From the NCBI GenBank assembly GCA_000165425.1, contig CT868018.1, positions 75,204 through 139,203 on the forward strand: 64,000 nt of DNA, given 5' to 3'. Below the pieces are notes generated by a model that ran no database searches, had not been told where the DNA came from, and was given only the letters and a program-made list of their open reading frames with translations. Positions 31,514 to 45,050 of the stretch are shown here, piece by piece. This DNA is from Paramecium tetraurelia (lineage: Eukaryota). A program made the translations under genes and the position numbers. Positions within the stretch are counted from its first letter, which is position 1. Each line of letters begins with the position of its first letter.

Positions 31514-34312
31514 TCAATTTAGATAAAATTATTTAACCTATTTACTTGATTTGACCAATCTTGATAATACTTTTGTTGCAATAACTATCAAGACTGTTGT
31601 TGCTATAAGGGCATTATAATTGAAATTATCCAGTAACATATCGTATGTCTAATATATTATTAAGAAAAATATACTTTATCAGGAGCGATTCTAGTGAAGA
31701 AAATATCAGAACCATAAACTAATAGTAACGCTGAGGATTCTAAATTTGTTGATTCTATTGAAAATTTCTCAATTTCGAACTAGATTAAATAATTAAAATA
31801 CAGTTTAGTGATATGTCAGCATGTTTAAAAAATTAATTGGTAATTAATATTAATAAGGAGGAAGCTCTGCTGATTACAGAGAATATTCTAATATAGGTTG
31901 ATCTGCCTTTTCTCTTCTTCTAGTGGAAACTAAGTTACGATCTAAAGAATGCAATTATCCTGAAGTTGTTATAATCAATAAATTCTTTTTTGTTAATGAT
32001 TTAAGAGTTCTAGACATTCCCAAATACTTGATTCCCAAAGGGCATCCATATACTTATTACAAGAAGAATGATTCAAAGTCAGCTTTATAATAGTTAGTAA
32101 TGATTGGTGTTTTTGTAAAGTAATAGTTTTCCAACATTTTAATAAATGATACTTCAATCTTAGCATGATAGATTTCAACAGTCCAAATTTCAAACATCAT
32201 TTAAGCCTTATTGTAATAAGTAACAAACACTTAGTGTTCATCAAAAACTAAATTAATAGGTTGGTTAAAGTCAGCCTCACTTTGGACACTCTAAAATATT
32301 ATTTTGCCAGTCTTAGCATTAATAATAAATAATTTTAATTTATCCCCATCTGAAGTTAAGACTGCAAAATTAGATTGATCAATCAATTTGAATATGACTT
32401 TTCTATCATCCCATATTGCAACTCTTGGATTTTCTTCTCCAACATGATAAGAAGATCTGATTATCAAAATTTCATCTTTCATATTAATTGTCCATATGTT
32501 GACTAATTAATTATTGAATAATTTATATCCTTTAAGTACGCCATTGTCATTTCTATATAAGATGATCTCTTTTGTATTTAAAGAATCATGTTTGGGATAT
32601 GTAAATATATTGTTTTCTTCATCAATTAGAATTACAATATTGTGATGTTGCCCAGGTCCTCCTTCCACTCTGTAGGGGATTGTCCATAAAATATTATTTG
32701 AAGATTGTGATGCAACCTATTGGATTATTCCATGTTATAAATCTAAAACAAAAGTATTCAAACGTTTTTTCTCATTCGAATAATAAAATAACACGTGAGT
32801 TGGCTTTGCATCATTGCTATCAAAATGTCTGATTAGATTGGAACTAAATTATTATGGAATGTATTACTCTATTTAATGATGTGCAACCAATTTAAAGGAT
32901 TTATCTTAATTATTAATCTATAATTTAATTAATAAAGATAACTCTTAAGTGTCATAACATAATAATGTTCCATAAGTTGTCAAAAAGTAGACCTTCTATT
33001 TCAATCCATAGGTTTATTCCATCTCTCTTGTTTAAACCTTCTCTTTACCCAAATTATCAATAAAATGAGTTGCTACCTCTTGTAAATCTCTGACCTCGTT
33101 CAAAATCCTTGAAACAATATTTTACACCAAAAACAAAGGATTGTTTGTACCGTGCTTCTCAAGTGATTCATAATATGTATTTTTATGTGTCTATTCTTAA
33201 TTTTCGTATTTTTCGTAAAAAACAGTATCAATGCTAATTAAAGATTGTTCAGTTGTCCATCTAATACCTTTATTATCAACTAGTACAGTCTGTAAATCTT
33301 TATACTGAATTAAAAATTATTTTTTATTTTAATCTATCAAAAAAGCATTTAATATTGATGTCTTTGTTTCTAATTCTATCATTTCTGAGTGATGTTATTT
33401 TGTATCTCTGTCAAAAGTCACAATAATTAACTCATTATCTTTCTATTTTAAAGTATAATAATATTTTTGAGTCTCTAAATTTTATATAACATGCTCATCT
33501 TGATTTAATTCATATTCAATTTACCCATCCAAATTAACTATCTATTTCTTTGATTTTTCATTAATTACTAGAGTTTATGTTAACCCAATAAATCTATCCA
33601 ATTTCTTAATTAGTTCAATATCTAATGGCTTGGCTGATTTCTCTTTGAGGTGATAAGCAAATTTTTCATCTTTATAAACAAGGGTGTTGCCAAATTCATA
33701 AATTTTACCATTATTCAAACTTTATACACAGTAATTTTATTATATAGATTCTCTAATTTAATAGATGCAAATTTCCGTTTATTTTTGCAAAACAACCACT
33801 GGAACATCAAAGATATATCCTGCGTGTATAATTTAATGATCGAACCTAAAGATATCTAACTTATATTCATACTTCTTAGTGAATTTGTTATTAAAGGTCG
33901 AGAAAATAGTTTATCCATATATAAGTATAAACTCTCCATTTAATCCTATTAAGCAATGGTCGATTTAGTCTATAATTTCTCCTTCTGTCAACACTGAATA
34001 TCCTTCATTATATAATTGCACAATCTATTGATTTGGTTCATACCTGACGTAATTGTAGGAATCACACATAGTATAAGTATTTCTTTATTTAACTTGGCCT
34101 AAATTATACGAGTACATAAAACCTGTAGATTTCTCAATAATTCCATGTTGATTGTTCGTATTTTAGTAAAATATAGTTTAATCCTAAACTTGAATGTATT
34201 TTAGTTCGCCAAATAGTCTTTTATTCCAATCATGCACTCCTGCTTGTTGTTAATGCAATGCAAGGACATTATTAAAGATAATTCCAGCCACGCTCACAAT
34301 TAATAATAACAT
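31514..34312 (-). CDS. EMC1: ER membrane protein complex subunit 1
   Basis: Signal peptide then ALHQQQAGVHDWNKRLFG; C-terminal STNLESSALLLVYGSDIFFTRIAPDK|TYDMLLDNFNY followed by a TM helix. Confidence 0.88.
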
Positions 34313-34378
34313 TTATTAAATTTAATATTTTAAGTTCAATTAAAAAATTTTGTATTAGTCTAATGCAGATATTTTATC

Positions 34379-35864
34379 ATCAATATTTCTACTAGAAGGA
34401 AGAATCAATTCTTATATATAGAAGTTCCTGTATTGCTATCTTGAATTTCTTTAGGGTATTCAACAACTTATGTATTTCGATTAAGTCCATATAATTCATC
34501 ATGAATTTAGGAATTTGACTGTGATCTTATTTGAATCAAAAGTATTTAATGTTATACAAAATTAAAATTTGCCATATTCCAAATCATTTAACCTTTTAGA
34601 TATTTCAAAAGTAGGATAATGTTTTGATTTTTGTTGAGTACTTTAATTTATATCACATATTAATTATTTAAGATATTGTTGATCTTGATTAATGAGATCT
34701 TTATTTCATAGTAATAACTTTATTGATTTCTAAAATATATCAAAACTAATGGAATTTTAAGAGGTTGTCTTAATATAATATTTTAATATTAATTAATGAT
34801 TATTCATTCATCAAGCCAGAATTAAAACTTAGTTTAGAGTCCAGTTACCCATTTGATAGCAATTCCTTTATAACCTGATAAGAAAAGAACTTTAGTTGAT
34901 TATGATGGATTCCTTCCCATAGCTAATTTAAGTTATGTTTCTGGATTCTAAATAATATCATGTTAAGATAAGACAATATTATCTTGTTCGGCCTAATAAA
35001 TGAAAGAAAATGAATACTTCTGAAGCATTTTCTTCTAAAAATGTAGCTTTGAATGATCCATCTTCTGATTCTAATGTGACAATTTTTCCGTATTCTTTAA
35101 TTTAGACCTTAAACTATTTTATAGTTTTAACACTTTTATATAAATAATTAAAAATACGCTGTCTCTTTGTTACCGCTTGTATCATTAATTTCTTATCTTT
35201 TGATGGCCATCTTATTTACTAACATTTTATTTGCTTAATCTTTTAAGACATCTTGAAGACTATTTGGCTTTTGTTAATTTTGAGCGGGTATATTAGATGG
35301 GATTTGAGCGGGGATTGGAATTTAAGGTTATTAATTTATTTTGGATGGTTATGCCACAAATGGACTTTATGGTTGTTAAGGAATAAATGGACTTGTTGGC
35401 TGTTATTAAGAAACGAAGGGGGAGGTTGGTTGTTAAGTGGGAGTAAATCCTGGTTGATTAGCAGGTTGATTGGTAGATGGAAAGTTACTTGGAACACTAT
35501 TTTTGTCCTAAAATATTTGAATATATACATACCAAGCATTCAACTCTTTCACCTCCTTAAAGGAATTGATTTATCTTTGTGCTTTTTTAAATCGGTTTTT
35601 GTTGATCATTTATTCTCCATACTTTATCTAAAAACTTACCATTTTTAACATGATCATCAAAAATGTCCTCAAATGTATCATTGGGTTTTAATTGAACTTA
35701 TTTTCCATTGACTGTAAAGGAGATGCTCATATATGATTTCTATTAATTAAAAATATTTATATTTCTATTAACTTAATTTTATTACATTTCAATAACCCTA
35801 ATAAATAAATATAGTTATTAATATATATTATCATCAACATTCAATATTTTTATTTCATATTCAT
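34379..35864 (-). repeat. Inverted copy of the segment repeated at about 40200-41805 and 42240-43260
   Basis: Reverse complement compared by eye. 34379-35281 appears identical to 40876-41805 except for a 27-bp indel. Confidence 0.95.
34804..35730 (-). CDS. Uncharacterised protein, copy 1 of 3 (small N-terminal domain, P/Q/S-rich linker, C-terminal domain)
   Basis: MSISFTVNGKQVQLKPNDTFEDIF...LQGGERVECL|DKNSVPSNFP...KFQFWLDE-TGA; three short introns; frame intact. Confidence 0.85.
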
Positions 35865-36406
35865 GATCCATAAAACTCTCTTTTATTTAATTTCATTCAT
35901 ATATATCTAAAGGTATTATTTTTTTAATTAATAATATTCTAACTCATAATTTACTCTTATCGCCAAATTGCTATTTAATTCTAGATCTTCTTCATCTCTT
36001 AATTCTTTCAAATGATAATAGTTACTCTTATTAATGTCTCCATATTTAATAAACTTATGTTTTGTAATATTTAATATTTGGAAACATAAATAAACCTTGT
36101 GCAGTTTACTCATAACTAATCTTGTTTAATGATTTTAAAGGAGAGACTAGTATATTTTGCAATTAATTTAACTAACTTATGAAACTGTGTCATTTAGTTG
36201 TTTTGTTCTGAAATGATCAACCAAAAACAATCAACAATTAGCGATATTATTTACTGTATTATGAAAACATCACGTTTTTTTCAAAATTTGCACATTTAAA
36301 GAAGGAACTTTTTTACCATCGTCAATGATTGTTGTTGAATTTGATGAATTCAATTTTTAAAGTATTACCTGCAAAGAGTGGAATTATATTTATTCATTAA
36401 TTTAAA

Positions 36407-37688
36407 ATGTATAAATCCAAACGAACCTAATATGGTGGATCGACTGCCAGCACTTTAGATCTGTTACAGTCATAGGATTGTCTATTTTGTCAATAATCTC
36501 ATTAATTTTGTTGCCTCATTACTAGAGCTCTTTACATCAAATATTCAGCAAGCCAGAATTATTACTATCAAAAGGATATTAATATAATACTTTTGCAATA
36601 ACGATCTAAACAATATACTGCTTATAAAGAATGGACTTATTATGATCCTAATGAGTATTTAAAAAGGTTTTATTCTTTAACTGATACAAGATAAAAAACC
36701 ATAGTATTAACTGAATATTATAAAGTAATTACTTTCAAAACTATACTGAATAGTTTCATCGAGATATTCCTCGTCTTTTCATGTTACCTATAGCTTCAAC
36801 ATTATCTAAATATCATGATAAACGCCGCAGAATAGAATATATAAGAATATCAAGGATGCTAGGAGGGCATGTTGAATAACCAACATCAACATAAAATTCT
36901 ATCTAAACAGTATTAATTGAATATTTACATAAACTTAGTCATTGCAAAATCTATTGGGTTAATTAAATTTTACTAAACAAGAATAATCTAACACTTTGAT
37001 TGAAATATAAAAAAATCTAAAAGAAGCCATAAATACATCCTAAAACAATCAAAGAGAATTTGATTCTCGTAAGTATAATCTACCTCTATAACTAAAAAAT
37101 TCTGATTATTACAATAAATCTAAATTAGATCATAAATCTGATACCAATTCAAGATTGGATTTTAAAGAAAATATAAATGATCTAATTTATAAAAAAAAGC
37201 CATTAAAAAATTCAGGTATATAAACATAAAGAGAAATTTCTTAACCCAAAGTATATAGCACTGAAAAAAATTGTAAATTATAGGTTCAATAGATTCCCCT
37301 CACTTAAAGAAATGGCAACAATACAAAATAATCAATATCTCCTAGACCTACGACTTAAAGATCTATAAAACCTTAAATTATGTAGTTATTAAAGCCTAAC
37401 CATAATAACAACAATAAATTAAAGGCTACTAACATTATCTTAGAATGTCTAATGAGAAAGCTGAATTTAGATCAAAAGACTCTCAAAAAATAAAAATCCA
37501 AGTCTCCTAATAATCCTTCTAATTAACAAGCGAAAAGAAAGAGAAGAGTAATGAGCACAAATTAAGAAGCAACAAAAATAGATTTGACTTAACTTAAATA
37601 AAAATAATCATAATTACTTTAGAGTAAGTTTGATTAAAATATTATTAATAAAGGATATAAAACAGGAAGAGCCTCAGCAATGGCTTGA
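36407..37688 (+). CDS. Hypothetical protein with conserved-looking N-terminal domain and low-complexity tail
   Basis: KYSASQNYYYQKDIN...EYLKRFY...LTEYYK|FHRDIPRLF...YHDKRRRIEY; TGA at 37686-37688. Confidence 0.75.
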
Positions 37689-38250
37689 TTAATTTAGTTA
37701 TATATTTATTTATTTATTACTATAAAAATAAAGTCAATTGTAAAAAGAAAAGTTTAAAATTGAATCTAAAATATCATACCCTAATTCAATTGTTCCATCT
37801 ATTAAATATAGGTTTTCTAATTTTGATCTAAAATTTTTATTTGGTTTATTCAAATACAAATCGATATCTTTCTATGAAAAATTCAATCTCAATATTATCC
37901 ATTGCAAATAACACATATGTAATTTTAGACTTATTGAATGATGGAACTATCCCCTTATTATATTAGGACCTGAAGTAGTGCCAGAAAGTTTGCACAAAAT
38001 AAATCTTTGATATATGATATCCATAAGAATAGTTAGTTAAGATATATTTAAATCTAGAGTCCATATATATATAAGTTAAAAACTGTCAAATGTCAAAAAA
38101 AAAATTGTTTTTTTTCTAATCTATTTACCATTAACTTTAAAAAAGTAAATATCTTGAGTAAATTCATATTTTCTAAAAAATGACATAATCATTTCAACAA
38201 ACTTTATATTGCAATTTAATAATAAAAATAAATACTTTAGTCAAGTGAAA

Positions 38251-40010
38251 ATGATGAAAAATTAAAGCCCTGAAAGTGATAAAAACCCAAAAATAATGAG
38301 AAAAATTAACGAGCACAATGCTTCACATCGCACAGATGAAAAGTATAATTTGTTAATGCAATTTCTGCTTATTATCATTTAAGAAAAAGTAACTCGATAC
38401 AATAAAACAGAATACCAAAACCATAAAAGAAATGCATAATCTTAAATTAAAGTAAAATTCAAATGACAGAGAATTTATTTTATTGTGACTCGTTTGGTAT
38501 AGGAATCCTATGGTAGAACTCTAAACATTCAGATATAAGATACTGTATATTTTCAAAATGGAGGGGCTAAATCTATTTTATAGAGTCTCAAAGATAGTAT
38601 AGATAAGCCATTCTAATTAAGAGTCTAATTATGGAAAGGATCATTATAAAAATTAATGCAAATATATGAATAACAAAAGAAAGAAGATTGCAAATGCAAA
38701 TATATAATTAGATTTGATTCAAAAATGCGAAAAATAATAATCAGCATTGAGTATTTCAACATTTTATATAAAAATGTAATTAAATAAAGAGTAAATAAAT
38801 AATATTAGTGAAAAATTAAGGAAGCAGTTTTGGTTAAATTTGATGATGATTCAGTGTAAATAATGACTGAAGCTGAATTTTTTTTGTTAATGTCTAAAAG
38901 AAAGGGCGATAAATTCTGGAATAAAATATTTTCTATTTTAAATTACATTAAACAAAGGGTTTTTTTAACACATAGAATTCATTTTAATAGAAAAAGAGAT
39001 AGTAATCATACTTATTTTGAGCGAAGCGCTATGGAAACTAGAATAATTAGGGGCGAAGTTATTTCAGCATCCACAGAGTATATTAGTCAAGCAATAGAAG
39101 ATGATTTCTTAATATAATGAAGGAAAAAAGTATTTTTGAGTATTTAAGATATAATACGTTTAAAATAATTTAGTTCTTAGATTTAAATATATCTTATATG
39201 AATTTAGATACTTGATGACACCATCATAAATGAAGGTAATTTGAATGGAATCAAGATGATAGAGCAGAATTTCAATTTTTTAATACTTATTAAATCAAAT
39301 ATGAGAAAAGAATAAAAGACGAGAGTTATATTTCTCCAAAACCTCATCATTCTAATAATAGCAAAAATGCAAATGACGTTGAAAATAGTGAGGAATATAG
39401 AGAAATTGACCCAAGAAAATGTTTAATCGAAAATATTAATTGCAATTGATTGCTAGGAATGCATAAAATATATTAAAATTAAAATAATATCATTTATTAT
39501 ACAAAGATACACCAAAGATAAGTTAATGGCAAGGTTGTATGTAAGATGATTATCAAGCCTTATTGTAATCAGTTGGTATTGATAAAAATTAATTTAACTT
39601 AAGGGAAGATAATTAATCAGAGATGACATTCAAACATTTACACCCTGATATATAGATAGTATTTTAGAGGATGATGAAAGGTCAATAATTATTTAATAAA
39701 CTAAAGAGTAAAATTTTATTAAAAAAACATTTTAAAACAACTTTTTATAGAGAACAACAAATCTAAACCTATCTCTCATTCAAATATGTTACATAGACTT
39801 TTTTTAACACCAGAAAAAAAGCAAAGATCACAAGCTGTTTCAAAACCTAGGTGGGATTTAATTTCAACTCTTAATTAATCTTCATTTAAGAAAAGCATCA
39901 GGTCGGTTGATAGAACGGTCAGCGAATTTAGATATGAAATAAGTAGAAATGGAAAAAGATCAGCAAATACTCTTAATAAGGTACTTGGGTTAGCTAATAC
40001 TTGGTTTGAT
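38251..40010 (+). CDS. Hypothetical protein or degraded gene (ends and exons uncertain)
   Basis: Coding-like frames (MMKNQSPESDKNPK...; MTEAEFFLLMSKRKGDKFW); its 3' part is duplicated from 41806. Confidence 0.4.
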
Positions 40011-40263
40011 ATTATTTTATTACCAATTATTATTAGATCAAATAAATTAAAAATCTTTATGATTATTAATTATCATTTAAATAATAAAGAAATAACAAAG
40101 TAACTAATGTAGAAGCAAAATATGTTGATTGAATTTAATTTATTAAAAGGAAAATTTTACCATTAACAAAACTTACATCAACATGAATATTAAGATAAAA
40201 TAATGAATATGAAATAAAAATATTGAATGTTGATGATAATATATATTAATAAATATTTTTATT

Positions 40264-40430
40264 TATTAGGGTTATTGAAATGTAATAAAATTAAGTTAAT
40301 AGAAATATAAATAATTTAATCTATTAGGGCTATTGAAATGTAATTAAATTAAGTTAATAGAAATTTAAACAATTTAATCTATTAGGGCTATTGAAATGTA
40401 ATTAAATTAAGTTGGTAGAAATTTAAATAT
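40264..40430 (+). repeat. 58-bp tandem repeat (about 3 units) just upstream of gene copy 2
   Basis: TATTAGGG(T/C)TATTGAAATGTAAT.. starts at 40264, 40322 and 40380; only one unit lies upstream of copies 1 and 3. Confidence 0.92.
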
Positions 40431-40452
40431 TTTTAATTAATAGAAATCATAT

Positions 40453-41353
40453 ATGAGCATCTCCTTTACAATCAATGGAAAATAAGTTCAATCAAAACCC
40501 AATGATACATTTGAGGACATTTTTGATGAATATGTTAAAGTTAAAGGGTGAAATTTTTTTAAATAAAATATGGAGAATAAATGATCAACAAAAACTGATT
40601 TAAAAAAGCATAAAGATAACTCAAATCCTTAAAGGAGGTGATAAAGTTGATTGCTTAGTATATCTATATTCAAATATTTTAGGACAAAAATAGTGTTCCA
40701 AGTACCTTTTCATCTACCAATCAAATTGATAATCAAAGAAGATTTATACCCCTTTAACCACCAATTTAACCCATCGATTTTTTATAACAGCCAAGTAATC
40801 AACCAATAAATCCATTAGTGAAATAACCAAATAAAATAAATTAATAATCTTAAACTCCACCTAAAGTACCCACTTAAAATTAACAAAAGCCAAATAGTCT
40901 TCAAGATGTCTTAAAAGATTAAGCAAATAAAATGTTAGTAAATAAGATGGCCATCAAAAGATAAGAAATTAATGATACAAGCGGTAACAAAGAGACAGCG
41001 TATTTTTAATTATTTATATAAAAGTGTTAAAACTATAAAATAGTTTAAGGTCTAAATTAAAGAATACGGAAAAATTGTCACATTAGAATCAGAAGATGGA
41101 TCATTCAAAGCTACATTTTTAGAAGAAAATGCTTCAGAAGTATTCATTTTCTTTCATTTATTAGGCCGAACAAGATAATATTGTCTTATCTTAACATGAT
41201 ATTATTTAGAATCCAGAAACATAACTTAAATTAGCTATGGGAAGGAATCCATCATAATCAACTAAAGTTCTTTTCTTATCAGGTTATAAAGGAATTGCTA
41301 TCAAATGGGTAACTGGACTCTAAACTAAGTTTTAATTCTGGCTTGATGAATGA
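40453..41353 (+). pseudogene. Copy 2 of the triplicated gene, disrupted and chimeric
   Basis: Premature TGA at 40549-40551 (codon 33) with a frameshift; diverged 5' half; 3' half matches copy 1. Confidence 0.8.
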
Positions 41354-41682
41354 ATAATCATTAATTAATATTAAAATATTATATTAAGACAACCTCTTAA
41401 AATTCCATTAGTTTTGATATATTTTAGAAATCAATAAAGTTATTACTATGAAATAAAGATCTCATTAATCAAGATCAACAATATCTTAAATAATTAATAT
41501 GTGATATAAATTAAAGTACTCAACAAAAATCAAAACATTATCCTACTTTTGAAATATCTAAAAGGTTAAATGATTTGGAATATGGCAAATTTTAATTTTG
41601 TATAACATTAAATACTTTTGATTCAAATAAGATCACAGTCAAATTCCTAAATTCATGATGAATTATATGGACTTAATCGAAA

Positions 41683-41711
41683 TATAATAGCAATGCAAGA
41701 CTTTTTAATTA
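41683..41711. other. IES-like 27-bp TA-bounded segment (both TAs included in the coordinates)
   Basis: cgaaa-TA-taatagcaatgcaagactttttaat-TA-cataag here, versus cgaaa-TA-cataag in the inverted copy (TA at 34473-34474). Confidence 0.7.
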
Positions 41712-42368
41712 CATAAGTTGTTGAATACCCTAAAGAAATTCAAGATAGCAATACAGGAACTTCTATATATAAGAATTGATTCTTCCTTCTAGTAGAAATA
41801 TTGATATCTCTCATTCAAAATGTTACATAGACTTTTTTTAACACCAGAAAAAAAGCAAAGATCACAAGCAGTTTCAAAACCTAGGTGGGATTTAATTTCA
41901 ACTCTTAATTAATCTTCATTTAAGAAAAGCATCAGGTCGGTTGATAGAACGGTCAGCGAATTTAGATATGAAATAAGTAGAAATGGAATAAGATCAGTAA
42001 ATACTCTTAATAAGGTACTTGGGTTAGCTAATACTTGGTTTGATATTATTTTATTACCAATTATTATTAGATCAAATAAATTAAAAATTTTTATGATTAT
42101 TAATTATCATTTAAATAATAAAGAAATAACAAAGTAACTAATGTAGAAGCAAATATGTTGATTGAGTTTAATTTATTAAAAGGAAAATTTAACCATCAAC
42201 CAAACATATATCAACATGAATATTAAGATAAATAATGAATATGAAATAAAAATATTGAATGTTGATGATAATATATATTAATAAATATTTTTATTTATTA
42301 GGGTTATTGAAATGTAATAAAATTAAGTTGATAGAAATATAAATATTTTTAATTAATAGAAATCATAT

Positions 42369-43205
42369 ATGAGCATCTCCTTTACACTCAATGGAAAATA
42401 AGTTCAATCAAAACTCAATGATACATTTGGGGACATTTTTGATGAATATGTTAAAAATGGTAAGTTTTTAGATAAAGTATGGAGAATAAATGATCAACAA
42501 AAACTGATTTAAAAAAATATAAAGATAAGTCAATTCCTTTAAGGAGGTGAAAGAGTTGAATGCTTGGTATGTATATATTCAAATATTTTAGGATAAAAAT
42601 TAACAACCCTTCGTTTCTTAATAACCGCCAACAAGTCCATTTATTCCTTAACAGCCAATAAGTCCATTTGCGGCATAACCATCCAAAATATTTTAATAAC
42701 CTTAAATTCCATCTAATATACCCGCTCAAAATTAACAAAAGCCAAATAGTCTTCAAGATGTCTTAAAAGATTAAGCAAATAAAATGTTAGTAAATAAGAT
42801 AGCCATCAAAAGATAAGAAATTAATGATACAAGCGGTAACAAAGAGACAGCGTATTTTTTATTATTTATATAAAAGTGTGAAAACTATAAAAGGATTTAA
42901 GATCTAAATTAAAGAATATGGAAAAATAGTCACATTAGAATCAGAAGATGGATCATTCAAAGCTACATTTTTAGAAGAAAATGCTTCAGAAGTATTCATT
43001 TTCTTTCATTTATTAGGCCGAACAAGATAATATTGTCTTATCTTTTAATGATATTATTTAGTCCCCAGAAACATAACTTAAATTAGCTATGGGAAGGAAT
43101 CCATCATAATCAACTAAAGTTCTTTTCTTATCAGGTTTTAAAGGAATTGCTATCAAATGGGTAACTGGACTCTAAACTAAGTTTTAATTCTGGCTTGATG
43201 AATGA
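42369..43205 (+). CDS. Uncharacterised protein, copy 3 of 3 (shortened linker)
   Basis: MSISFTLNGKQVQSKLNDTFGDIF...FWLDE-TGA; same three introns; only in-frame indels relative to copy 1. Confidence 0.85.
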
Positions 43206-43299
43206 ATATTTAATTATCACATAATCATTAATTATTATTAAAATATTATATTAAGATAACTTTATATTATATGGATATATAGCTTCTATTTTCGACGAA

Positions 43300-45050
43300 T
43301 CTATTATTTCTAATTGATAAAATCTCAATAAACCTTATTCTGTTTGAGCTTTAACAACTTTATGATTAAAATATTAAAAAATTTTAGAAATCAAATGTGT
43401 TTTTAGATAAATTTCTTTCCATCCTTTTTTTTTGAAATTCGTTATTTTTAAATGCTGCATTACATTCATTAATATGAATAAGAAGACATCATAAAACTAT
43501 TTTTTAATTTATTATTAATGATTTTGTCTGAAAGGAATAAACCAAGTATTCTGCTGTAAAGAAAATACAAACCTATTTCTTTATCTTAAGTTTTGAAAAA
43601 ACCACTTATTGTTAAATCTTTGCCTCCTATTTATGTTTCTCCTTAATAGAGAACATCCTAGAAAAAAGAATAAAAATTAGAAAATAGCTTCTCTTAAAGA
43701 CCTCCATAACCTTAAATTTTCAATAAATTTGAAGGCATAGGAGCTGTAGGATTATCACTTAATCCAATATAAAAGTAGCCTTTTTATTAATAATATGTTT
43801 TAATGAGCAGTAAAAAACTTGCTATATAAGTCTCAAAAAAGTATAATATACACAACAAAATTAATATATATAATTTACAAAATTACTCTTAGAAATATTA
43901 TACAGAATCTCAGGCTGACAAAGCAAATAAATGGTCATAAACAACATTTGATGAAGAATAATTATTAGAATATTTAAATAATTGAAAATAGTCATTTATT
44001 TTCACACTGAAATTTTTATCAATATGATGATTTTGTATGATTAATTTTTCTATTTTGGTGACAATAATTATAAACAATAATTTTCGTCATTCTCATACTT
44101 TTAGACTTTTAGATATGTGTGTTAAGAAATATAATTGCCTAATTTGTATCAGTTTCTTCGAAAGCAAAAGTTAATTAGTTTAAAATCTTCTATTAAAGAT
44201 AAATGTTCTTCAAATAATTAAAACTCATTTTTATTAAAATCAATTACAGTTTTCCTAGAATGATGTAGACAATATCATAAAGAGTCATTTCAAGTAACAA
44301 CAACACTATTTTGAAATTGGAACTTATCAATTAAATCAGCTATTACTTTTCTGTTTTAAATTTAGGATCACATAACATCAAGAAGTTCATTCAGTATAGC
44401 ATAGTAGTTTATCCTTCTCTTTAGCTAATTTAAAGTTCCTTCCAATTTCTTTTTAGTTGCTATTCAAAGTCAACCTAAGTTGCTGTATTTGAGTATCCTT
44501 TGATCAAATAATTATTTTAAAGCGACTGCGATTGCTTGTTGTAGACTGCAGTAACAAGTAGGATTCCATAACTCTCTCTATTCTTTTTTGGCTATAAAAC
44601 TAATCATTTTGGTATCTCATTATTTAGAGATTCAAATTCTGATTAATTGTAGTTTTGTGCAAATTCTTTTTATAAAGCATTTTCAATTTTTAAAGAGATG
44701 ATCTGATGCTTCTTATATTTTGTCAAATTCAATGTCAAATACTCTAATCATTGAATGATTGAATGATTGATCATTAATTAAAACTACAATCAGTTTGATG
44801 CTGTAAATGATTTGAGGACAGAACATAATCTGTTCTAAAACTGATGTATAAGTGTAATCGCCTTCTTTTATAGCAAATTATTTATTAATCCAAATTCTAA
44901 TCGATCCTTTTGTTAAGCCTTCACAATAGTAATCTTCTTTCCTTATTTGAGGAAACTATTTCAATATAGTGATCTTATTTAGAATATTGTCAGACTATAA
45001 AGAACTTCTCTTGTCATTGTTTTTAATCTCATTTGATTTATTGATAAATA
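43300..45050 (-). pseudogene. Probable degraded gene (boundaries approximate)
   Basis: Long coding-like stretches broken by several TGA codons and frame switches that I could not resolve with short introns. Confidence 0.35.

What the first reader, a model, noticed from the sequence alone, without database searches (positions are those of the whole stretch)
41683..41711. 27-bp TA-bounded IES-like segment present in one duplicate and precisely absent from the other
Seen: two about 900-bp copies (34379-35281 inverted; 40876-41805) look identical by eye except that the second has TA-taatagcaatgcaagactttttaat-TA where the first has a single TA (34473-34474). Known: Paramecium IESs are TA-bounded, leave one TA on excision, peak at 26-28 bp, and have the end consensus TAYAGYNR. 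The left end TATAATAG fits 7 of 8 positions; the right end (TAATTAAA) fits poorly. Inference: a weak or cryptic IES excised from one copy and retained in the other despite identical flanks, giving a natural test of position- or scnRNA-dependent excision. The insert is 3n and stop-free (IIAMQDFLI) in a coding-like frame.
Basis: partly seen in the sequence, partly recalled or inferred. Interest (0 to 1): 0.8.

Follow-up and report, generated by a model that had tools for sequence, protein, structure and literature searches.

The report
Weak Paramecium IES caught in assembly
A 27-base piece of germline-type DNA that Paramecium normally cuts out was left in one of two identical repeats in this assembly, but other cell lines have lost it from both repeats, so the difference is most likely an ordinary assembly snapshot and not a position effect.

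Summary
Both copies are real. The interpretation, stably excised from one copy and kept in the other, is not supported. A published table of somatic deletions lists this very 27-mer (PMC6771405 supplement). In isogenic sister lines, reads carrying it number 23 (18 C line) and 0 (25 C line). Each line has 2 reads lacking it that are placed on copy 2. A mapping simulation shows that reads with the segment land on copy 2 whichever copy they come from, so 0 means absent from both. In 4 of 4 public runs the only contig over the site lacks it, and one contig crosses the copy-2 junction (contigs can drop variants). The site is intergenic, 330 bp past a stop codon. Best reading: a weak first-peak IES, mostly excised from both copies, with a residual form assembled into copy 2. 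Whether copy 1 has it in the germline, and whether residual retention is copy-biased, stays open.

The parts
41683..41711 (+). 27-bp TA-bounded IES-like segment (41683-41709) plus the TA that remains (41710-11); GC 22%; left end 7/8, right end 4/8 to consensus; Cin-score 0
   Evidence: listed as MILORD.129.116921.116947 in PMC6771405 supplement
34473..34474 (-). single TA at the empty site in copy 1
40876..41805 (+). copy 2 of the identical block (3' part of gene X2 plus downstream intergenic DNA)
   Evidence: covered by contigs in runs X1, X3, X7
34379..35281 (-). copy 1 of the identical block, inverted; ends 67 bp before the EMC1 start codon
   Evidence: loose end into the EMC1 flank at 41805 in runs X1 and X7
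34804..35730 (-). gene X1, 283 aa, uncharacterised, three short GT-AG introns, ends ...FWLDE stop
   Evidence: P0003; introns read from the sequence
40453..41353 (+). gene X2; 7-bp insertion and in-frame TGA at 40549-51 in exon 1 (probably broken, inferred); stop TGA 41351-53 lies 330 bp before the segment
42369..43260 (+). gene X3, third copy; 16 of 478 substitutions from X1 and X2 in the 3' part; homology ends near 43260 and does not reach the site
41805..42368 (+). segment A2, tandem duplicate of A1 (39770-40452), 11 of 534 substitutions; its junction with the block is specific to copy 2
31772..34312 (-). EMC1-like gene (PF07774, E 4.4e-24), the unique flank of copy 1

Best explanation
The 27 bp are a short, intergenic, weakly recognised internal eliminated sequence (IES). 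A recent germline duplication or gene conversion made 903 bp of two inverted gene copies identical and most simply put the IES in both (inferred). In each new macronucleus the excision machinery cuts at the two TAs and leaves one (mechanism from established Paramecium biology, not tested here). Excision is complete or nearly so at both copies in most lines. The poor right end leaves a variable residue: about 6-16% in an 18 C line and none in its 25 C sister (shown from published counts; the denominators are neighbouring rows). The assembler met both forms inside an identical repeat and wrote the retained form into copy 2 and the excised form into copy 1 (inferred). Because the segment then sat in the reference, IES-calling pipelines could not catalogue it and logged it as a 'somatic deletion'.
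For: Published counts for this exact 27-mer: 23 with and 2 without (18F1); 0 with and 2 without (25F1). Neighbouring rows of the same tables have 138-192 and 89-100 reference reads. The lines are homozygous isogenic sisters, isolated macronuclei, about 90-100x, 150-nt reads. The contrast has Fisher p 6e-6 to 7e-5 with neighbour rows as depth proxy. Simulation: reads with the segment score best on copy 2 for 158 of 158 (from copy 2) and 140 of 158 (from copy 1); reads without it score best on copy 2 for 0 of 131 (from copy 1) and 17 of 131 (from copy 2). So 0 means neither copy carries it, the 'without' reads come from copy 2, and they are expected to be few. In 4 of 4 runs the contig over the site lacks the 27 bp, and bin depth equals 38/65 of the neighbours, i.e. 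no contig covers the segment. X17 record 9 lacks it and runs 44 nt past the copy-2 junction. Weak IESs are 5.4% of intergenic IESs against 0.7% in genes (PMC8354472 passage). [quoted passage not shown] Cin-score 0; shared somatic IESs have lower Cin-scores.
Against: No germline or PGM-knockdown read was seen, so presence in the germline is inferred from the sister lines, and presence in copy 1 is not shown at all. The IES table searched has no entry at the copy-1 site (none between 129.107082 and 129.112383; site expected near 109,711-714), though IES-bearing reads from copy 1 would be drawn to copy 2. Contigs collapse 1:1 variants here (A1 and A2 alleles are mixed in records 6, 16, 24), so contig absence of the segment is weak alone, and 2x depth cannot separate the models. 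Only 2 deletion reads per line are placed on copy 2. The 25F0 table has no row for the site and the 32F1 table is cut. I did not see how MILORD defines support_ref. My simulation is single-end with approximate scoring. X17 is only guessed to be RNA. The ends are unremarkable among TA-TA segments.
Confidence: 0.6

Rival explanations
1. Only copy 2 has the IES in the germline. Copy 1 lost it precisely, or was converted from an IES-free template. Copy 2 is still excised in most macronuclear molecules, so the assembly is again a snapshot, but residual reads all come from copy 2.
For: No catalogued IES at the copy-1 site. Precise germline loss of IESs is documented, 17 cases (PMC3464196 passage). 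All read counts fit equally well.
Against: Needs an extra event inside a tract with 0 substitutions in 903 bp. The catalogue gap is expected from mapping, and the catalogue has no entry over the whole repeat region, 129.113473 to 129.122044.
Confidence: 0.2
2. Both germline copies carry the IES, both are mostly excised, but the residual retention is strongly biased to copy 2 by something beyond the 96 bp and 807 bp of identical flank (chromatin, nucleosome phase, transcription). This is the surviving form of the first reader's idea.
For: The assembly has it only in copy 2. The copies differ 96 bp away. An RNA-like run has a contig through the copy-2 junction. Excision of homologous IESs in ohnologs is largely unlinked (PMC6771405 passage).
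Against: One assembly with one retained site is what equal low retention also gives. No copy-resolved count of retained reads exists here. Fixed retention in copy 2 is excluded by 0 reads in 25F1.
Confidence: 0.1
3. It is macronucleus-destined DNA (a cryptic IES) whose excision became heritable in laboratory lines through scnRNA comparison with the maternal macronucleus, as for the mtA promoter. The line assembled had a partly retained state.
For: Published as a cryptic-IES row. Weak ends. A second TA-bounded 57-bp piece nearby is missing in one run only. A neighbouring catalogued IES (129.113473, about window 38233) is weak and Dcl2/3-sensitive: 0.16 control, 0.58 knockdown.
Against: The segment is absent from contigs of four runs of four different studies and from one more line. 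Short first-peak IESs are mostly scnRNA-independent (PMC13085455 and PMC8354472 passages).
Confidence: 0.07
4. An ordinary fixed germline indel between duplicates that happens to be TA-bounded.
For: 7.5% of 27-bp deletions here look TA-bounded by chance. A 15-bp TA-bounded indel, too short for an IES, separates X3 from X1 and X2.
Against: A fixed insert in copy 2 would give about 90-100 reads in 25F1; 0 were counted while the isogenic sister gave 23. Copy 2 without the segment exists.
Confidence: 0.03

Closest known systems
Weak ('somatic') first-peak IESs of Paramecium tetraurelia (PMC6771405, PMC8354472)
   Same: TA-bounded, 27 bp, one TA left, intergenic, low Cin-score, retention that varies between sister macronuclei and is higher at 18 C
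   Different: Not in the IES table searched, because it sits inside the MAC reference; it lies in a 903-bp identical inverted repeat; Pgm dependence not tested
TA-indels: residual and low-frequency (cryptic) classes (PMC3464196 section 12; PMC4132734)
   Same: Two forms of one site coexist in macronuclear DNA; size at the 26-30 nt peak; logged as such in a published table
   Different: Logged as the cryptic class (deletion score 0.08 in one line), but that score is distorted by the repeat; the excised form is the major one, so it behaves as a residual TA-indel written into the assembly
[quoted passage not shown]
   Same: Recent duplicate of an IES site with homologous flanks
   Different: Presence in both germline copies is inferred here, not shown
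mtA/mtB cryptic IES excision (seen only as passages of PMC6771405)
   Same: Alternative excision states of one germline sequence
   Different: No gene or promoter is shown to be affected, and no inheritance of the state was tested

Membership tests
Paramecium TA-IES | TA at both ends, one TA left after precise removal | tested here: met
   junction also in published rows and contigs
Paramecium TA-IES | Length of at least 26 bp, in a peak of the periodic size distribution | tested here: met
   27 bp; first peak 26-30 nt (PMC4132734 passage)
   7/8 and 4/8; 4 of 39 local TA-TA segments score higher; Cin-score 0
Paramecium TA-IES | Absent from most macronuclear molecules | tested here: met
   0 and 23 reads against about 90-190 in neighbour rows; no contig with it in 4 of 4 runs (weak alone)
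Paramecium TA-IES | Present in the germline at the site (each copy) | tested here: inconclusive
   Inferred for at least one copy from isogenic sister lines; no germline read seen; copy 1 unknown
Paramecium TA-IES | Excision needs PiggyMac | not testable with these tools
   Runs carried no library description and only contigs were laid
Catalogued PGM-IES set (44,928) | Listed at this site | tested here: not met
   No entry at either copy in the retention table of PMC4132734; the pipeline calls only insertions relative to the reference
Cryptic IES / low-frequency TA-indel | Present in most macronuclear molecules, deleted in a minority | tested here: not met
   0 retained reads in 25F1; about 6-16% in 18F1
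Maternally controlled (scnRNA-dependent) IES | Retention after DCL2/3 knockdown or when present in the maternal macronucleus | not testable with these tools
   Site absent from the knockdown table searched
Spliceosomal intron | GT...AG ends on either strand | tested here: not met
   Sequence read directly
In-frame coding insertion | Lies in a conserved or annotated coding sequence | tested here: not met
   Four database proteins, one from P. octaurelia, end 330 bp upstream; frame P0001 has no Pfam hit, and its one weak library hit covers residues 40-75 only

The most novel reading that the evidence does not exclude
Both germline copies carry the same 27-bp IES with 807 and 96 bp of identical flank, yet its residual retention falls almost wholly on copy 2. 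That would show excision efficiency being set by context more than 96 bp away, where sequence-matched scnRNAs and iesRNAs cannot tell the copies apart. It could be measured from existing 150-nt reads.
Probability: 0.1. Interest if true: 0.55.

Novelty: new member of a known kind. Interest (0 to 1): 0.2.

Why it matters
As it stands it matters little: one more weak intergenic IES, with the practical lesson that an IES written into one copy of a repeat in the reference drops out of the IES catalogue and gets a misleading deletion score (0.08 where the excised form dominates). It keeps some use as a test site. The unique flank is only 96 bp away, so ordinary 150-nt reads can give per-copy retention for a sequence-identical IES pair. 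A strong copy bias there would be a clean case of long-range context acting on IES excision.

Tried and rejected
Misassembled duplicate: rejected. Runs X1, X3 and X7 have a contig for the copy-2-specific 5' part (40675-40905), their shared contig stops at 41805, X1 and X7 show a loose end into the copy-1 flank, and X17 crosses the copy-2 junction (the DNA runs' bridge over that junction was not among the rows shown). Coding role of the 9 residues: rejected. Ancestral state from a paralog: the only distant paralog in G000 (L015) also stops after ...DE and showed no evident match downstream by eye; no outgroup DNA for the site was available. Contig depth as a test between models: rejected, since about 2x depth is expected under all of them. 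The presence of the segment in the published strain-51 reference is not independent support: that reference is a polished older draft in which only 1-2 nt indels were corrected. Literature: the 27-mer is in no main text of the library. A 24-nt part was found in supplements of PMC6771405 only, and not in those of PMC8354472, PMC3698930 or PMC9670198 (one file each of the last two not searched). Searches for a study of position-dependent excision of duplicated IESs listed none by title (listings only). The ParTIES paper was not found. Earlier scan findings: none. The best runs hold only 0.88 of the words of 34000-43500; not explained, possibly collapsed variants. Only copy 2 with its flanks (40440-42360) was laid, and only 4 of the 24 listed runs.

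Full report
Observation. The two copies are as described. Leaving out 41683-41709 makes 40876-41805 identical to the reverse complement of 34379-35281 over 903 bp (alignments). The segment is 27 bp with TA at both ends, and copy 1 has one TA. G000 holds only these two copies of the region. TA ends alone are modest evidence, since 67 of 893 possible 27-bp deletions in the block can be written that way. The Cin-score, defined in PMC4787833 (passages), is 0.

Surroundings. The block belongs to a small array. An uncharacterised gene X occurs three times: X1 inverted at 35730-34804, X2 at 40453-41353 and X3 from 42369. A segment A occurs twice. Database proteins for the three copies are named as Paramecium tetraurelia; they and a P. 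octaurelia relative all end in ...FWLDE, at TGA 41351-53. The segment lies 330 bp downstream. The open frame through it has no Pfam match and no good match elsewhere in G000. Its one weak hit among 1.84 billion representatives does not cover the nine residues. The site is therefore best treated as intergenic. In the 3' part X1 and X2 differ at 0 of 478 sites while each differs from X3 at 16; in the 5' part X1 and X2 differ at 20 of 231. A recent conversion or re-duplication of a 903-bp tract between older inverted copies fits this (inference).

Independent runs. I laid 4 of 24 listed runs on 40440-42360, all kept as contigs. The copies are real: there is a contig for the part specific to copy 2, the shared contig stops at 41805, and a loose end leads into the EMC1 flank of copy 1 in X1 and X7. 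In all four runs the one contig over the site lacks the 27 bp, and depth in that bin is 38/65 of the neighbours, as expected if no contig carries them. In X17 the contig without the segment runs 44 nt past the junction that only copy 2 has. Against over-reading: these contigs mix alleles of A1 and A2, so they collapse 1:1 variants, and X17 is only guessed to be RNA. Contigs alone do not prove absence.

Published read counts. The supplement of PMC6771405 lists this 27-mer, with the same junction, as MILORD.129.116921.116947. Three of its rows place the window on that reference at an offset of 75,238-75,241. In the line developed at 18 C, 23 reads carry the segment and 2 lack it; in the sister developed at 25 C, 0 carry it and 2 lack it. 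Neighbouring rows have 138 and 192 reference reads in the first table and 89, 98 and 100 in the second. The lines are homozygous isogenic sisters, sequenced from isolated macronuclei at about 90-100x with 150-nt reads. The parental table has no row for the site, and the 32 C table is cut in the copy held. To read these counts I simulated single-end 150-nt reads with approximate local scoring. Reads with the segment go to copy 2 whichever copy they come from (158 of 158 and 140 of 158). Reads without it go to copy 2 never if they come from copy 1 (0 of 131) and seldom if they come from copy 2 (17 of 131). Three things follow. In the 25 C line neither copy carries the segment at a detectable level. 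In the 18 C line it is about 6-16%, and the copy cannot be told. The deletion reads are copy-2 molecules, and their small number is what the repeat predicts. One genotype giving 0 and 23 reads (Fisher p 6e-6 to 7e-5 on proxy depths) means developmental excision, not a fixed indel. I did not see how MILORD defines its reference count.

Mechanism. Shown: precise TA-to-TA loss, the excised form dominant, copy 2 also excised, and the level varying between sister macronuclei. Inferred: presence in the germline, PiggyMac-type excision, presence in both germline copies, and the assembler's choice of a residual form for copy 2. The IES table of PMC4132734 has no entry at either copy. That counts against an IES in copy 1, but weakly, because the catalogue was made from insertions relative to a reference that already holds the segment, and it is empty over the whole repeat. 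The germline state of copy 1 is the main open point (rival 1, 0.2). A copy-biased residue is not excluded (0.1).

Comparison with what is known. [quoted passage not shown] It warns that TA-indels are not IESs without further support. PMC8354472 (passages) gives weak IESs as 5.4% of intergenic IESs. PMC6771405 (passages and supplement rows) reports more retention at 18 C and largely unlinked excision of homologous IESs in ohnologs. PMC4132734 was seen as passages and supplement rows and PMC13085455 as passages. PMC3698930 and PMC9670198 were seen only through search listings and supplement searches without a hit. Unreadable or cut supplement files (one each in PMC6771405, PMC4132734, PMC3698930 and PMC9670198, the cut archives of PMC6771405, and all of PMC3464196, which were listed but not searched) could hold more on this site. 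It works like a weak first-peak IES and meets the tested features of one. Germline presence is inferred and PiggyMac dependence is untested.

Verdict. The feature is real and ordinary in kind, and it is already logged as a row in a published table. Interest 0.2. The site remains a cheap test of copy-biased excision, because the unique flank is within one read length.

Noticed in passing
window 42062-42118: Run X17 has a contig that skips 57 bp bounded by TA on both sides (not GT-AG). The three DNA runs keep it, and it is not among the published deletion rows found for this region. It may be a line-specific cryptic excision.
   Followed up: partly
window 43207-43221: 15-bp TA-bounded indel between X3 and X1/X2 just after the stop codon, too short for an IES; shows that TA-bounded indels arise here by other routes.
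   Followed up: partly
window 40540-40551: Gene X2 has a 7-bp insertion and an in-frame TGA in exon 1; the database model P0002 uses another start. Probably a broken copy.
   Followed up: partly
window 40259-40433: Three head-to-tail copies of a roughly 58-bp unit upstream of X2; X1 and X3 have one.
   Followed up: no
window about 38233: A catalogued IES (129.113473) maps here with retention 0.16 in control and 0.58 after DCL2/3 knockdown: a weak, scnRNA-sensitive IES 3.4 kb from the finding.
   Followed up: no
window 36716 and 44395: Published rare TA-bounded deletions: 28 bp in 2 of 194 reads (18F1) and 91 bp in 1 of 87 reads (25F0).
   Followed up: no
window 31772-34312 (-): EMC1-like gene (PF07774) whose start codon is only 67 bp from the end of copy 1.
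   Followed up: partly
L015 1498-1728 (-) and 3-815 (-): Distant paralog of the last exon of gene X (43% identity) with the same stop position, followed by a protein-kinase-like frame (motifs recognised from recall).
   Followed up: partly
window 41464-42212: The RNA-like run X17 covers the intergenic region and segment A but not gene X2 itself; if it is RNA, the site may lie in an unannotated transcript.
   Followed up: no
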